A DNA stretch of 64,000 nt from a virus (Duplodnaviria > Caudoviricetes): IMG/VR virus record IMGVR_UViG_3300005686_000008; one strand, given 5' to 3'. The notes beneath the pieces are model-generated. The model worked only from the letters and a program-made list of their open reading frames with translations, was not told the origin of the DNA and searched no databases. Both the position numbers and the translations under genes were made by a program. Of the stretch, positions 15,989 through 19,372 are shown in pieces. How positions within the stretch are numbered: the first letter of the stretch is position 1; each line of letters opens with the position of its first letter.

Positions 15989-16913
15989 AGGCCTATGTTG
16001 TATTCATGTCGGATTACAAAAGTCTGGCTCCAAGTTTCAAACGATGACTTGGAGCAGATTTTCTCAAATAGGCCGAACCGCTGCCCTACCTATTTTGGCG
16101 GAAAGATATAAAAACAACCTTTCTATTATTTTGAAGATTCTTCATTGTTGCGCGCAAAAGGGCTGGTGCTATAGAGTTAGCAGCGATATCTTTCCCCTCA
16201 TGACTCATCCAGAGGCTAATCTAAAATGGGAAGATATTCCCAATCATGATGAACTAACCCGTCTTTTTCTTTCTTGCGCAAAAGAAATCTATACCAATAA
16301 TATTCGAGTTTCATGTCATCCAGACCAATTCAATGTTCTCGCTAGTCTAAATGACAAGTCTGTTGCTCAAACTATTACCGAACTTAATCATCATGGCTGG
16401 TTCATGGAACGCTTAGATAGCACAGGCTATCATTCTCCCATCAACATCCACCTTAATTGTTCTAGCGGAGACCCCAAAGAAATAGCCAAAAGGTTTAAGG
16501 ATGGTTTAGATAGGCTTGATAAGCATACTAAGCCTCGGTTGGTTATTGAAAACGAAGATAAAGGCATTTGGAATGTTCGCAATCTTATTGAACATATCCA
16601 CGAACTCACTGGAGTTCCCATTACATTTGATTATTTACATCATAAATGTAATGATGGCGGTTTGACAGAAAAAGAGGCTTTTGAGCTTTGTATTCAGACA
16701 TGGGGTAAGACTAGACCATTGTTTCATTTCTCAGAATCTTTACCTGGTCAGAAGAATCTTAGGAAGCACGCTGACTATCCGACCTATGTACCTGATACTT
16801 ATGGGTATGAAATTGACCTAGATTACGAGTTCAAGCAAAAAGATTTAGCTCTCGAAAGAGCAGAAAAAATAGCCCAAAACCTTGCAGGTGAAGAGTTGCA
16901 GGCTAAACTTTAG
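15978..16913 (+). CDS. uvsE: UV damage endonuclease UvdE/UvsE
   Basis: YRVSSDIFP, SCHPDQFNVLAS, INIH, LVIENED, FDYLHH, PLFHFSE, HADY, E.KQKD. Confidence 0.93.
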   Translation: MNRKGLCCIHVGLQKSGSKFQTMTWSRFSQIGRTAALPILAERYKNNLSIILKILHCCAQKGWCYRVSSDIFPLMTHPEANLKWEDIPNHDELTRLFLSCAKEIYTNNIRVSCHPDQFNVLASLNDKSVAQTITELNHHGWFMERLDSTGYHSPINIHLNCSSGDPKEIAKRFKDGLDRLDKHTKPRLVIENEDKGIWNVRNLIEHIHELTGVPITFDYLHHKCNDGGLTEKEAFELCIQTWGKTRPLFHFSESLPGQKNLRKHADYPTYVPDTYGYEIDLDYEFKQKDLALERAEKIAQNLAGEELQAKL

Positions 16914-16934
16914 ACGGAAAAATGGTGAGCAGAT

Positions 16935-16962
16935 TCAAGTTCTACAGAAAACTAGCCGATAG
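16935..16962 (+). promoter_or_regulatory. Candidate sigma28-type promoter for the Y RNA/Ro60 operon
   Basis: TCAAG-N15-GCCGATAG. Confidence 0.5.
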
Positions 16963-17005
16963 AGACTACGAGGACGCCTACCAACGCACTCAAGACAATC
17001 AAAAA

Positions 17006-17092
17006 GGCTTTGGCCGAAGGAATGACGGTTAACAACCCCACCACTTAGGAGTTCTGCCGTAAGGCTTCCGTTGTCCACCCCTTGCCTCAGCC
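17006..17092 (+). ncRNA. Y RNA-like unit 1
   Basis: Ends pair GGCT..GGC-CG-AAGG / CCTT-GCC..AGCC; upper stem ATGACGG/CCGTTGT followed by TTAAC; internal GTAA tetraloop hairpin. Confidence 0.75.
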
Positions 17093-17133
17093 ATTTCTTG
17101 CTGATTCAGGTCTAACGATCTGGAAGAAGCATT

Positions 17134-17264
17134 AGTTCCGAGTCGAAGCATTTTAGGTTAACAACGTTTGGGTTTCAGTAGCTTTCTATGACGCAGATAA
17201 AGAAGGTAATCCCGAAAGGGCTTCCCAATACTCTGCACTCCTAAAGGCATCCCTTACTCGGACT
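17134..17264 (+). ncRNA. Y RNA-like unit 2
   Basis: TCCGAGT-CG-AAG / CTT-ACTCGGA; upper stem TTTAGG/CCTAAA followed by TTAAC; internal GAAA tetraloop hairpin. Confidence 0.78.
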
Positions 17265-17315
17265 TTGAATAGCAAGGCTCTAAAAGAGAAATCTAATAGA
17301 GCTTATTTGAGAAGA

Positions 17316-17379
17316 TAGAAGTCGAAGGTAGAAGGTTAACATATTGCAAAAAAGACCTTTTGCCACCAACTTACTTCTA
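17316..17379 (+). ncRNA. Y RNA-like unit 3 (minimal)
   Basis: TAGAAGT-CG-AAG / CTT-ACTTCTA; upper stem GGTAGAAGGT/ACCTTTTGCC; GGTTAAC motif. Confidence 0.78.
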
Positions 17380-17402
17380 GCTTTTCTTGACAATTGAATA
17401 AT

Positions 17403-17525
17403 GCGCCTGTAGTGTAATGGCTAGCACGCTAAAACATCCTGACCAATTACTTACCGAACAGGTCGAACGGAAAGGGTTATCTCTATATCCCAGAGGTAGT
17501 TTGGGTTCGAATCCCAACGGGCGCT
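17403..17525 (+). ncRNA. yrlA: YrlA-like tRNA-mimic Y RNA
   Basis: Acceptor GCGCCTG/CGGGCGC, D arm GTGT-AATGGCTA-GCAC, T arm TTGGG-TTCGAAT-CCCAA; anticodon arm replaced by a long insert with TTACC/GGTCGAA and GGTTATC; adjacent to Ro60. Confidence 0.85.
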
Positions 17526-17545
17526 TTGTAAACGAATGTTGGAAG

Positions 17546-17585
17546 TTACATACTTCAGTAATAGTTACTGAAGTCGAATAAGGAG
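17546..17585 (+). promoter_or_regulatory. Ro-motif hairpin abutting the Ro60 RBS
   Basis: ACTTCAGTAA-tag-TTACTGAAGT, then CGAA, then TAAGGAG. Confidence 0.6.
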
Positions 17586-17592
17586 ATTGCAA

Positions 17593-19293
17593 ATGGCAAA
17601 CTATGGAAAGTTGACTGGTTCTCTTAGCTCCAAGACCCCAAAGGCTACCCCTCAGACGGTACAGACTCCTGGAACCGTTCAGAATAACGCCGGTGGTTTC
17701 GTTTTTGAGATTAATAAGTGGGACCGCCTGGACCGCTTCCTGATCCTCGGTACGGATGGGGCAACCTATTACTGTACTGAGCGCAAGATGACTCTTGATA
17801 ATGCTAAGAACGTTATTGAGTGCATTAAGGAGGATGGTCTGCGCACCGTTCAGCGCATCGTTGAAATCAGCGATGCTGGTCGCGCTCCAAAGAACGACCC
17901 TGCCTTGTTTGCTCTTGCGCTTTGCGCAGGTCATGATTCGGCTACGCCCGAGACTCGTCGCGCTGCTCTTGCTGCGCTTCCGAAGGTTGCTCGTATTGGA
18001 ACTCACTTGTTCCAGTTCGCGCACTTCGTTGACGGTTTCCGTGGTTGGGGTTCTGGTCTTCGTAACGCTATCGCCAACTGGTATAACGGTATGAAGCCTG
18101 ACCGCTTGGCTCTTCAGGTTGTCAAGTATCCTCAGCGCACCGCAGAAGAGGGTAACTCCAAGTCTTCCTGGTCGCATGATGACTTGCTTCGCAAGTGTCA
18201 CGCAAGGGGCGACGAGCTTCACAATATGATCTATGCTTATGTAACTCGCGAAGGCAAGTTGCCTGACCCTGTACCTGAGCAGCTTGTTATCCTTGAGGGT
18301 GCAAGCAAGATCAAGGGTCAGACTAACCCGAGCATCGTTGCTTCTCTTGTCGAGGAGTACCAGCTTCCTCACGAGCTGATCCCGAAGGAAGTCGCTAACG
18401 ATCCGAAGGTATGGCAGGCTCTCTTGCCTCACATGCCTATCACCGCTACTATGCGCGTTCTCAACCGCCTTACTTCGTATGGAGTTCTTAAGCCGTTCTC
18501 CAGCGAACTCAAGATGGTTACTGAGCGCTTGACCAACGTTGAGCAGATCAAGAAGGGTCGCGTTCACCCGTTGGCCGTTCTTGGCGCTCTCAAGACTTAC
18601 TCCGCAGGTCGCGGAGTTCGCGGAAGCCTTACCTGGTCGCCAATCGCCCAGGTATCTGACGCTCTCAACGAGATGCTTTACCTTGCGTTCGACGCAATCG
18701 AGCCAACTGGTAAGAACATCCTTTTGGGTCTTGACGTTTCTGGTTCTATGACCGGCGGTAGCGTTGGTGGACTTGACTTCGTTACGCCTCGCGAGGCATC
18801 TGCTGTTATGGCGATGGTTACGGCGCGCAGCGAAAAGAACTGGCACGTTATCGGCTTCACTTCTGGCGGATATTCCTACGAGAAGGGAACTTCTGGTAGG
18901 TATGGTTTCGGCGGGAACTACGGAGTTACCGAAATCAATATCAGCCCGAAGGACAAGCTTGATACGGTTTGCAACAAGATTGAGAAGCTTCCAATGGGAG
19001 GTACTGATTGTGCCCTGCCGATCATGTATGCTCTTGAGAAGGGTCTTAATGTTGACGCCTTCGTTACCTACACGGATAACGAGACTTGGGCTGGTTCTAT
19101 CAAGCCTCACGAGGCTTTGAAGATGTATCGCAATCAGCGTAACCCGCAGGCGAAGGTGATTGCGGTTGGTATGACGGCTACGGAGTACAGCATCGTTGAC
19201 GAGAACGACGCAGGTTCTATGAACTTCGTTGGATTCGACACGAGCGCCCCGGCTCTCATGGCGGACTTCATCCGTAAGGATTTGCGCCGCTAA
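17593..19293 (+). CDS. rsr: Ro60/Rsr TROVE-domain RNA-binding protein
   Basis: NNAGGFVF, LDRFLILGTDGATYY, GRAPKNDPALFALA, RIGTHLFQF, RGWGSG, SHDDLLR, vWA MIDAS DVSGSM, GGTDCALP, YTDNETW. Confidence 0.96.
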   Translation: MANYGKLTGSLSSKTPKATPQTVQTPGTVQNNAGGFVFEINKWDRLDRFLILGTDGATYYCTERKMTLDNAKNVIECIKEDGLRTVQRIVEISDAGRAPKNDPALFALALCAGHDSATPETRRAALAALPKVARIGTHLFQFAHFVDGFRGWGSGLRNAIANWYNGMKPDRLALQVVKYPQRTAEEGNSKSSWSHDDLLRKCHARGDELHNMIYAYVTREGKLPDPVPEQLVILEGASKIKGQTNPSIVASLVEEYQLPHELIPKEVANDPKVWQALLPHMPITATMRVLNRLTSYGVLKPFSSELKMVTERLTNVEQIKKGRVHPLAVLGALKTYSAGRGVRGSLTWSPIAQVSDALNEMLYLAFDAIEPTGKNILLGLDVSGSMTGGSVGGLDFVTPREASAVMAMVTARSEKNWHVIGFTSGGYSYEKGTSGRYGFGGNYGVTEINISPKDKLDTVCNKIEKLPMGGTDCALPIMYALEKGLNVDAFVTYTDNETWAGSIKPHEALKMYRNQRNPQAKVIAVGMTATEYSIVDENDAGSMNFVGFDTSAPALMADFIRKDLRR

Positions 19294-19319: not shown

Positions 19320-19351
19320 GCCCCTCGGTGGACTCCATCGAGGGGCTTTTC
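19320..19351 (+). terminator. Intrinsic terminator after Ro60
   Basis: GCCCCTCGGTGG-act-CCATCGAGGGGC-TTTT. Confidence 0.8.
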
Positions 19352-19372
19352 ATTTAAGCCGACAATTTTGCA

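What the first reader, a model, noticed from the sequence alone, without database searches (positions are those of the whole stretch)
17006..19293. Ro60 operon with a tandem array of three Y-like RNAs plus a tRNA-mimic YrlA
Seen: the 680-nt gap before the Ro60 gene holds four units that differ in sequence but share G[TC]CGAA...GGTTA[AT]C. In units 1-3 (17006-17092, 17134-17264, 17316-17379) the 5' and 3' ends pair through different sequences around the same G[TC]CGAAG / CTT[AG]C bulged helix, then an internal loop and an upper stem; the changes are compensatory. In unit 4 (17403-17525) the same helix is circularly permuted into the anticodon position of a tRNA-like body. Established: Ro60/Rsr binds a bulged-C helix of Y RNAs, and tRNA-like YrlA genes lie next to rsr in bacteria and some phages. 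Inference: one phage Ro60 works with a set of interchangeable Y RNAs, three of them with end-paired, animal-like topology and effector loops of different size, each perhaps tethering Ro60 to a different partner.
Basis: partly seen in the sequence, partly recalled or inferred. Interest (0 to 1): 0.9.

Follow-up and report, generated by a model that had tools for sequence, protein, structure and literature searches.

The report
Phage Ro60 gene with Y-RNA array
A giant phage from sludge carries a Ro60 RNA-binding protein gene preceded by four small Y-type RNA genes; this arrangement is already known, except that one RNA is built as a normal tRNA with the Ro60-binding helix as a closed arm, a layout not found described in the papers searched but recurrent in other phages.

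Summary
The 679-nt gap between a UvdE gene and a Ro60 gene (17593-19293) holds four non-coding units on the Ro60 strand. They account for 4 of the 5 matches to GYCGAA..GGTTAWC in the 370-kb genome.

Covariance models built only from distant phage Ro60 loci find all four:
- unit 3: 49.4 bits
- unit 2: 24.5 bits
- unit 1: 22.8 bits
- unit 4: 71.7 bits

Units 1, 3 and 4 show compensatory changes in related phages. Unit 2 has no homologue.

Units 1-3 are end-paired Y RNAs carrying the published bacterial motif GNCGAAN0-1G. Unit 4 is a tRNA-shaped RNA with open acceptor ends. Its Ro-binding helix is closed by a loop, so it is an exact circular permutation of the known YrlA.

A fifth Ro-type hairpin sits on the Ro60 ribosome-binding site. 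It is conserved across the clade.

Several Y RNAs beside Ro60, one of them tRNA-like, is an established pattern in bacteria and in Thermus phage phiLo. On that count the array is a new member of a known kind.

The open-acceptor form is the new part. I found about 36 copies in 22 of 80 phage Ro60 loci. The Rfam YrlA model did not match the window copy, and the papers I could search do not describe it.

Expression and Ro60 binding remain untested. This scan had already noted the same stretch and unit 4.

The parts
16933..16985 (+). Conserved non-coding leader ahead of unit 1, with blocks ATTCAAGTT, GCCGATAGA and CGCCTACCAA. Its role is unknown.
   Evidence: The blocks are conserved in the five loci aligned and, by eye, in a sixth. 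No consensus structure was found. Indels put the blocks in different reading frames, so it is not coding.
17004..17093 (+). Y RNA unit 1 (A-type). It has an outer stem, an internal loop, the helix GGC[C]GA / CUUGCC, the upper stem ACGG/CCGU, then GGUUAAC. The roughly 40-nt loop carries a GNRA hairpin.
   Evidence: R1 gives 22.8 bits over the full length. RNAalifold on 5 orthologues predicts 17 pairs, 7 of them with compensatory changes.
17133..17265 (+). Y RNA unit 2. The helix is UCCGAGU[C]GA / CUUACUCGGA, the upper stem ends in GGUUAAC, and the branched loop is about 83 nt.
   Evidence: R1 gives 24.5 bits over the full length when the 161-nt stretch is searched alone. It was missed in the whole-window and filters-off searches. 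No homologue exists in any fetched locus, so there is no covariation test.
17312..17382 (+). Y RNA unit 3 (B-type, a short mini-Y). The helix is UAGAAGU[C]GA / CUUACUUCUA, with a 10-bp upper stem and a 16-nt A-rich loop.
   Evidence: R1 gives 49.4 bits, E 2e-10, the best hit in the window and in the whole genome. Folding z is -3.7. Five orthologues give 21 pairs, 14 with compensatory changes.
17387..17402 (+). Spacer motif TTGACAATTGAATAAT directly before unit 4.
   Evidence: Similar TTGACAnTTGAATA strings follow the B-type unit or precede the tRNA-like unit in L003 and L014. Seen by eye only. It could be a promoter piece or a processing site; this was not tested.
17403..17525 (+). Unit 4, an open-acceptor tRNA-like Y RNA. 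In order it has: 7-bp acceptor, U8, D arm, CUAAAAC linker, upper-stem 3' strand, CUUACC-GAACA-GGU[C]GAA closed Ro-type helix, upper-stem 5' strand, GGUUAUC, a hairpin with a 7-nt loop, T arm, acceptor 3' strand and discriminator U. No CCA is encoded.
   Evidence: Rfam tRNA gives 39.6 bits with a 66-nt insert. ARAGORN makes no call. R2 gives 71.7 bits, E 1.5e-16, over the full length, while ordinary tRNAs score 49.9 or less. The 14-sequence consensus has 27 pairs, 22 with compensatory changes.
17549..17578 (+). Closed Ro-type hairpin over the Ro60 ribosome-binding site. The 10-bp stem ends in AGU[C]GAA, and AAGGAG follows at 17580-17585.
   Evidence: In 5 clade members there are 8 pairs, 4 with compensatory changes, always ending in AGTCGA just before the Shine-Dalgarno sequence. 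It is also present in L108. In the relatives it lies inside the end of an upstream ORF.
17593..19293 (+). Ro60/Rsr gene, 566 aa.
   Evidence: Pfam TROVE 7.7e-30 and vWA_Ro60 1.7e-52. PDB 2nvo Rsr E 8.5e-108 and human Ro60 9nen E 2.9e-97.
19320..19356 (+). Intrinsic terminator after Ro60.
   Evidence: A 12-bp stem with 9 G-C pairs, followed by a T tract.

Best explanation
This is a phage Ro60-Y RNA module.

Inferred transcription and processing: the four RNA genes and Ro60 are probably transcribed in one direction and cut into separate small RNAs.

Inferred binding: each RNA presents the same Ro60 docking site, a helix with a bulged C in G-N-C-G-A opposite C-U-U-R. Each carries a different distal part: a medium loop with a GNRA hairpin, a large branched loop, a small A-rich loop, or a whole tRNA body.

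Inferred function, following bacterial RYPER and phage phiLo: the RNAs gate the Ro60 ring and tether it to other factors, such as host PNPase or tRNA-handling enzymes, during infection.

Unit 4, inferred: it has tRNA gene order, so RNase P and 3' processing enzymes can release it like a tRNA. The host CCA enzyme could then tail it, with Ro60 sitting where the anticodon arm would be.

RBS hairpin, inferred: the Ro-type hairpin on the Ro60 ribosome-binding site would let surplus Ro60 shut off its own translation.

Shown here: the sequence anatomy, the conservation and the covariation.

Not shown here: transcription, processing, binding, the partners and the autoregulation.
For: Protein: it is a Ro60 orthologue.

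Clustering: four of the genome's five motif matches cluster here on the Ro60 strand.

Model R1:
- It was built from 20 short RNAs beside Ro60 genes only 43-50% identical to this one. Their MAFFT alignment is 81.9% paired against 60.9% when shuffled, with 16 of 21 pairs changed on both sides.
- It finds units 3 and 1 as the only hits in 64 kb, and unit 2 when that stretch is searched alone.
- It finds nothing else in the 370-kb genome.
- Across 643 kb of phage Ro60 loci it gives 92 hits, all on the Ro60 strand. Of 81 sources, 50 have a hit and 30 have two or more.

Motif and structure:
- The motif equals the published GNCGAAN0-1G of bacterial Y RNAs (PMC4201824).
- Orthologous units 1 and 3 keep their structure through compensatory changes.

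Unit 4:
- R2 gives 71.7 bits.
- The class keeps the tRNA invariants: U8 in 29/30, A14 in 30/30, G18 in 28/30, G19 in 29/30, and T54, T55, C56 and A58 in 30/30.
- Positions 15 and 48 covary: G:C 16 times and A:U 10 times out of 30.

Precedents:
- Bacteria have two or more Y RNAs processed from one precursor, one of them tRNA-like.
- Phage phiLo Ro60 binds two upstream Yrl RNAs and forms a complex with host PNPase (PMC12135203).
- M. smegmatis YrlA is cut by RNase P and gets CCA.

Context: the same genome encodes RtcB, and tRNA genes, a class II aminoacyl-tRNA synthetase and a PP-loop enzyme lie nearby.
Against: There is no expression or binding data of any kind.

Neither the Rfam Y_RNA model nor the YrlA model matches the window, even at E 10.

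Folding energies of units 1, 2 and 4 are not better than shuffles.

Unit 2 has no homologue. It scored only when searched in a small stretch.

The lower stem of unit 4 is only 3 bp under the bulge, against 8-10 bp in end-paired units. Ro60 binding to it is therefore an open question.

In four relatives the 3' strand reads CAUA instead of CUUA, so the A-U pair next to the G-U is lost.

The acceptor and T stems of the alignment behind R2 were selected for pairing. Only its D stem, Y hairpin and tertiary positions are unbiased.
Confidence: 0.8

Rival explanations
1. The units are not separate RNAs. Together they form one long structured 5' leader of the Ro60 mRNA, acting in cis as repeated Ro60 binding sites for feedback control.
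For: No terminator was found between the units and Ro60, and no strong sigma-70 promoter was found inside the gap. A Ro-type hairpin does sit on the ribosome-binding site.
Against: In other phages the same RNAs lie downstream of Ro60, for example in L004, L033, L037, L053, L077 and L080. In L001, L003, L014 and L024 a 177-185-aa ORF separates them from Ro60. Unit 4 has every feature of an RNase P and 3'-end processing substrate. Bacterial Y RNAs are cut out of polycistronic precursors.
Confidence: 0.08
2. Unit 4 is a working tRNA gene interrupted by an intron-like insert, and it only happens to lie beside Ro60.
For: It passes the Rfam tRNA threshold, 39.6 against 29 bits. It has a 7-bp acceptor, tRNA tertiary nucleotides and a hairpin with a 7-nt loop. 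Many class members have loops of the form CU-NNN-AA, like anticodon loops.
Against: The insert carries the Ro-binding consensus and covaries as a helix. The class is found beside Ro60 in 22 of 80 loci, always on its strand. In the window the 7-nt loop AUAUCCC has C at the position where tRNAs nearly always have a purine (established knowledge). ARAGORN does not call it. From general knowledge, a 50-66-nt insert is far too short for a group I intron, and no protein-spliced tRNA introns are known in bacteria.
Confidence: 0.04
3. The units are chance hairpins, or a phage repeat family unrelated to Ro60.
For: Folding z-scores are weak for units 1, 2 and 4. Rfam has no Y-family hit.
Against: The motif clusters here. 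An independent model gives hits only here in 370 kb. There are 92 hits on the + strand and none on the - strand near Ro60 genes. Covariation supports the structures.
Confidence: 0.02

Closest known systems
YrlA (Rfam RF02553; S. Typhimurium, M. smegmatis, mycobacteriophages; Chen et al. 2014; Wang et al. 2018)
   Same: Unit 4 has the same modules as YrlA:
- the GNCGAA Ro site
- an upper stem ending in GGUUAUC
- a following hairpin (called V)
- a T arm
- a 7-bp acceptor-type stem
- U8-A9
- a D arm
- a CUAAAAC linker

It also keeps the same tRNA tertiary nucleotides, including 15:48 covariation, and it lies beside Ro60 on the same strand.
   Different: The connectivity is reversed. In YrlA the RNA ends lie in the Ro helix and the acceptor is a closed loop. 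In unit 4 the ends lie in the acceptor and the Ro helix is closed by a 5-nt loop. The Rfam YrlA model gives no hit here, although it does hit canonical copies in L006, L007, L099 and L100.
YrlB of Salmonella and M. smegmatis, and Yrn2 of D. radiodurans (short hairpin Y RNAs)
   Same: Units 1-3 are end-paired hairpins with the Ro site near the ends. They are encoded in tandem with a tRNA-like Y RNA upstream of Ro60.
   Different: There are three of them here. Both strands of the Ro helix are conserved (GNCGA with CUUR), and the upper stem ends in GGUUAWC. YrlB sequences were reported to have no homologues outside Salmonella.
Yrl1 and Yrl2 of Thermus phage phiLo (PMC12135203)
   Same: They are phage-encoded, lie upstream of the phage Ro60, and were found through the CGAA motif and a 5'-3' stem. 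They were shown to bind phage Ro60 and to join host PNPase.
   Different: There are two RNAs there and no tRNA-like member is described. I did not compare the sequences.
Metazoan Y RNAs (Rfam RF00019)
   Same: They have a bulged-C helix formed by the ends. Chen et al. 2014 state that the GGUCCGA motif contacted by Ro60 resembles GNCGAA. From memory only: several human Y RNAs also have GGGUUAUC after the upper stem.
   Different: The Rfam model gives no match. The loops differ. The resemblance in GGUUAUC was not tested here.
D. radiodurans Yrn1
   Same: It is a tRNA-like Y RNA in which the D-like element precedes the T arm.
   Different: In Yrn1 the Ro helix extends the acceptor position and holds the RNA ends. 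In unit 4 the Ro helix is in the anticodon region and is closed.

Membership tests
Y RNA (functional class: small RNA bound by Ro60) | Encoded close to a Ro60 gene on the same strand | tested here: met
   All four units lie 68-589 nt upstream of Ro60 on the + strand.
Y RNA (functional class: small RNA bound by Ro60) | Helix with a bulged C that carries GNCGAAN0-1G | tested here: met
   The motifs are GCCGAAGG, GUCGAAGC, GUCGAAGG and GUCGAACGG, each opposite CUUR with N paired to R. N-R covaries in the family: C-G 14 times and U-A 6 times.
Y RNA (functional class: small RNA bound by Ro60) | The helix is formed by the 5' and 3' ends of the RNA | tested here: inconclusive
   This fits units 1-3 by prediction. 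It does not fit unit 4, where the helix is closed by a loop. The real RNA ends are unknown.
Y RNA (functional class: small RNA bound by Ro60) | Stable discrete transcript that binds Ro60 | not testable with these tools
   No RNA run holds the sequence, and binding cannot be modelled here.
Rfam Y_RNA RF00019 | Covariance-model score at or above the gathering threshold | tested here: not met
   No hit at E up to 10 over 16850-17650.
Rfam YrlA RF02553 | Covariance-model score at or above the gathering threshold of 69 bits | tested here: not met
   There is no hit in the window at all. Canonical phage copies elsewhere score 42-47 bits.
Rfam YrlA RF02553 | tRNA-like domain with T arm, D arm and tRNA tertiary nucleotides | tested here: met
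   Unit 4 has U8, A14, A15:U48, G18, G19 and a UUCGAAU T loop.
Rfam YrlA RF02553 | Closed acceptor-like stem-loop, with the RNA ends in the Ro-binding stem | tested here: not met
   The order is acceptor 5', D, Ro helix (closed), hairpin, T, acceptor 3'.
tRNA RF00005 | Covariance-model score at or above the gathering threshold of 29 bits | tested here: met
   39.6 bits.
tRNA RF00005 | Normal anticodon arm of a 5-bp stem and 7-nt loop directly after position 26 | tested here: not met
   There is a 66-nt insert in the model's anticodon region. ARAGORN makes no call.
Ro60 / TROVE protein | TROVE (HEAT-repeat ring) domain plus vWA domain | tested here: met
   Pfam scores are above the cut-offs. 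The protein aligns end to end with Rsr 2nvo and human Ro60.

The most novel reading that the evidence does not exclude
Open-acceptor Y-tRNAs may be a distinct, widespread class of phage Y RNAs. They would be matured like tRNAs (RNase P, 3' trimming, host CCA addition), placing Ro60 on a molecule that tRNA enzymes, and perhaps synthetases or EF-Tu, accept.

They may also be the form from which permuted YrlA arose. In tandem copies, which occur 4-21 nt apart in several phages, the stretch from the Ro 5' strand of one copy to the Ro 3' strand of the next has exactly the YrlA order.
Probability: 0.35. Interest if true: 0.75.

Novelty: new variant of a known kind. Interest (0 to 1): 0.6.

Why it matters
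Y RNAs are thought to decide what Ro60 acts on, yet the partner of the tRNA-like kind is still unknown.

A version with free acceptor ends and a closed Ro helix changes which enzymes could engage it. It gives a concrete test of the idea that YrlA came from tRNA genes.

Chen et al. [quoted passage not shown] Tandem copies of this class may therefore have been missed.

The broader survey gives a simple signature for annotating phage Y RNAs: GNCGA, then 8-9 nt, then GGUUAUC, paired with CUUR. Some of these RNAs are now annotated as hypothetical proteins or as tRNA-Asn.

The hairpin on the Ro60 start region suggests a testable feedback loop.

Tried and rejected
- Rfam at E up to 10 found only tRNA in the gap.
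- No RNA holder is listed for the stretch. All listed holders appear to be DNA runs, from bioreactor sludge and freshwater metagenomes, so I did not lay reads.
- R1 with filters off missed unit 2. It was recovered only in a short search.
- Unit 2, unit 1 and the leader gave no blastn-short match in other loci.
- The leader gave no consensus structure. A small ORF reading of it (37 codons from 16923) was rejected because the conserved blocks fall in three different frames in relatives.
- Nine cultured phages were checked: Gordonia Sixama and BearBQ, Streptomyces Blueeyedbeauty, Mycobacterium Dandelion and Farewell, Microbacterium A3Wally and SM23, Agrobacterium Atu_ph07 and Sinorhizobium Phosso.
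  - Where my models or Rfam hit at all, the hits I inspected were canonical YrlA or short Y RNAs.
  - No clear open-acceptor form was seen. Two weak R2 hits (L105, L106) were not resolved.
- No PolyA_pol family (CCA-adding enzyme) gene was found in the phage genome record, which is about 73% complete.
- Three reviews by the Wolin group were not held in the library. My statement that the open-acceptor form is undescribed therefore rests on the papers I could search.
- A resemblance of the unit 4 acceptor and D loop to tRNA-Gly is a recollection only and was not tested.
Full report
**What is there**

The window is part of a 370,652-bp phage record, estimated 73% complete, that is held by bioreactor-sludge metagenomes.

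The ORF at 17593-19293 is a full Ro60. It has Pfam TROVE and vWA_Ro60 domains. It aligns end to end with D. radiodurans Rsr (E 8.5e-108) and human Ro60 (E 2.9e-97). A UvdE gene ends at 16913, which leaves 679 nt with no credible ORF. A strong terminator follows Ro60 at 19320-19346.

Four of those lie within 470 nt of this gap.

Read directly, units 1-3 each have:
- a different lower stem
- a bulged C in G-N-C-G-A opposite C-U-U-R
- an internal loop
- an upper stem that ends in GGUUAAC

The motif is the published bacterial Y RNA signature GNCGAAN0-1G, which Chen et al. 2014 relate to the GGUCCGA contacted by Xenopus Ro60.

**Independent test with relatives**

A profile search of IMG/VR returned the best 80 of 396 phage contigs that encode a Ro60 relative.

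From loci whose Ro60 is only 43-50% identical to this one, I took 20 short RNAs that carry the motif and aligned them with MAFFT. The window's own clade was left out.
- The proposed structure is 81.9% paired, against 60.9% after shuffling and at most 49.5% after sliding.
- 16 of 21 pairs change on both sides.
- The N of GNCGA covaries with the R of CUUR: C-G 14 times and U-A 6 times.

The covariance model built from this alignment is R1.
- In the 64-kb window it finds only unit 3 (49.4 bits, E 2e-10) and unit 1 (22.8 bits, E 1.4e-3).
- It gives no other hit at E up to 0.001 in the 370-kb genome.
- Unit 2 scores 24.5 bits over the full model when its 161-nt stretch is searched alone. The filters, and the filters-off mode, lose it, probably because of its 83-nt loop.
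- Over 643 kb of Ro60 loci, R1 gives 92 hits at E 0.01 or better. All are on the Ro60 strand and none on the other. They fall in 50 of 81 sources; 30 sources have two or more and 10 have three or four.

**The close clade**

I examined five relatives: L001, L014, L003 and L024 from the viral collection, and L108 from a metagenome. Their Ro60 is 64-79% identical to the window's.
- L001, L003, L014 and L024 keep the A-type unit (window unit 1). The alignment of the window with these four gives 17 pairs, 7 with compensatory changes.
- The same four keep the B-type unit (window unit 3), giving 21 pairs, 14 with compensatory changes.
- L108 has a single B-like unit.

Array content varies:
- L024 has A and B only.
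- L001 adds the tRNA-like unit.
- L003 adds a roughly 300-nt conserved stretch, another short unit and the tRNA-like unit.
- L014 has A, B and the 300-nt stretch.

All five relatives have a 177-185-aa ORF (ORF length called only in L014) between the RNAs and Ro60. The window has lost that ORF.

Unit 2 is unique to the window.

**Unit 4**

Rfam's tRNA model matches 17403-17525 at 39.6 bits with a 66-nt insert in the anticodon region. ARAGORN does not call it.

A scan for tRNA bodies with long inserts found the same design repeatedly beside phage Ro60 genes, often in tandem. I aligned thirty of them from 18 loci, again leaving out the window clade.
- The D stem is 99% paired and the closed Ro hairpin 90% paired. 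Both show compensatory changes, and neither was used for selection.
- The acceptor and T stems were used for selection, so their perfect pairing proves nothing.
- tRNA invariants are kept, and the Levitt pair 15:48 covaries: G:C 16 times, A:U 10 times, other 4 times. The window has A15:U48.

The model built from them is R2.
- It scores unit 4 at 71.7 bits (E 1.5e-16) over its full length, while the phage's ordinary tRNAs reach at most 49.9 bits.
- Unit 4 is the only such RNA in the genome.
- A census gives about 36 units longer than 95 nt in 22 of 80 loci, all on the Ro60 strand.

**Relation to YrlA**

Published YrlA has its ends in the Ro helix. It then runs V hairpin, T arm, closed acceptor-like stem-loop, D arm, and back to the Ro helix. 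It is described as resembling a circularly permuted tRNA that lacks a free CCA end.

Canonical phage copies in my set, for example in L033, L080 and Gordonia phage BearBQ, show GGUUAUC before the hairpin and GCUAAAC or GCUAAAAC after the D arm.

Unit 4 has the same modules and linkers in tRNA order: acceptor 5', D arm, GCUAAAAC, upper-stem 3' strand, CUUACC, GAACA loop, GGU[C]GAA, upper-stem 5' strand, GGUUAUC, hairpin, T arm, acceptor 3'. Put another way, unit 4 is the unpermuted form.

In tandem copies the acceptor strands pair within each unit (7 of 7, by selection). Pairing between neighbouring units averages 4.1 of 7. Two pairs reach 6 of 7, so both readings are possible for those two.

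[quoted passage not shown] That could explain why this form is not in the literature I could search. Three reviews were not available.

**A fifth Ro-type site**

At 17549-17578 a 10-bp hairpin ends in AGU[C]GAA and runs into the AAGGAG of Ro60.

The five aligned clade members have such a hairpin with different stem sequences: 8 pairs, 4 with compensatory changes. Each ends in AGTCGA just before the Shine-Dalgarno sequence. L108 has it too.

In the relatives it overlaps the end of the upstream ORF, so part of the conservation may be coding. Autoregulation of Ro60 translation is the obvious hypothesis, and it is untested.

**How it probably works**

This is inference from known systems:
- In D. 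radiodurans and Salmonella, Y RNA tethers Ro60 to PNPase.
- Bacteria have at least two Y RNAs cut from one precursor, one of them tRNA-like.
- Thermus phage phiLo Ro60 binds two upstream Yrl RNAs and forms a ternary complex with host PNPase.

I infer the same here: one Ro60 with several alternative RNA adaptors.

Unit 4, and possibly the tRNA processing enzymes acting on it, would also help cut the precursor. The phage encodes RtcB about 30 kb downstream, no CCA-adding enzyme in the 73%-complete record, and many tRNA and translation genes nearby.

**Novelty**

A phage Ro60 with several Y RNAs, one of them tRNA-like, is a known arrangement. The new elements are:
- the open-acceptor topology and how often it recurs
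- the shared GNCGA..GGUUAUC..CUUR signature across some 90 phage RNAs
- the hairpin on the Ro60 start site

**Limits**

No transcript, processing or binding data exist. Unit 2 rests on one model score. The short lower stem of unit 4 may or may not suffice for Ro60 binding.

Noticed in passing
window 16933-16985: The sequence blocks ATTCAAGTT, GCCGATAGA and CGCCTACCAA precede the first Y unit in all six clade members. They have no consensus fold and no common reading frame. The last block resembles the 3' side of the B-type units (GCCACCAAC). This could be a degenerate Y RNA, a promoter-proximal signal or a processing site.
   Followed up: partly
L003 1900-2200 and L014 2140-2440: A roughly 300-nt non-coding stretch is conserved between two relatives. 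It sits inside the Y RNA array and includes GGTCGTAGAYGGGTGACTAGGGTG. Rfam gave no match for L003. It is absent from the window.
   Followed up: no
L003 1580-1612, L014 1785-1815, L024 2068-2098: Sigma-70-like promoters (TTGACT or TTGATT, 16-18 nt, TATAAT) stand just upstream of the leader in three relatives. This was seen by eye. The window has only a weak TTGCAG..TAAACT at 16897-16909 inside the end of UvdE, and the scan did not call it.
   Followed up: partly
window 17526-17592, compared with L001 2431-2990: The relatives have a 177-185-aa ORF between the tRNA-like RNA and Ro60. The window keeps only its first codons (ATGTTG) and its last ones (GTCGAATAA), so the ORF has been deleted. I did not annotate the ORF.
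   Followed up: partly
L107 2623-2689 and 2763-2912 (Microbacterium phage SM23): The annotated tRNA-Asn is the V hairpin plus T arm of a canonical YrlA. The annotated 'hypothetical protein' overlaps two short Y RNAs that R1 finds.
   Followed up: partly
many loci, e.g. L082 2394-2515, L079 2301-2428, L104 (BearBQ): The hairpin after GGUUAUC often has a 7-nt loop of the form CU-NNN-AA and is followed by a tRNA-like AGGUC variable loop. It looks like a true anticodon arm. The Ro module would then be an insertion between the D arm and the anticodon arm, not a replacement of the latter.
   Followed up: partly
window 48878-50005 (+): An RtcB RNA ligase gene (348.5 bits) lies in the same phage, about 30 kb from Ro60. 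In Salmonella, rsr, the yrl RNAs and rtcBA form one operon.
   Followed up: partly
window 17048-17226: The loops of units 1 and 2 each hold a GNRA-capped hairpin: GCCGUAAGGC in unit 1 and CCCGAAAGGG in unit 2. The A-type orthologues keep a tetraloop hairpin at the same place with different stems.
   Followed up: partly
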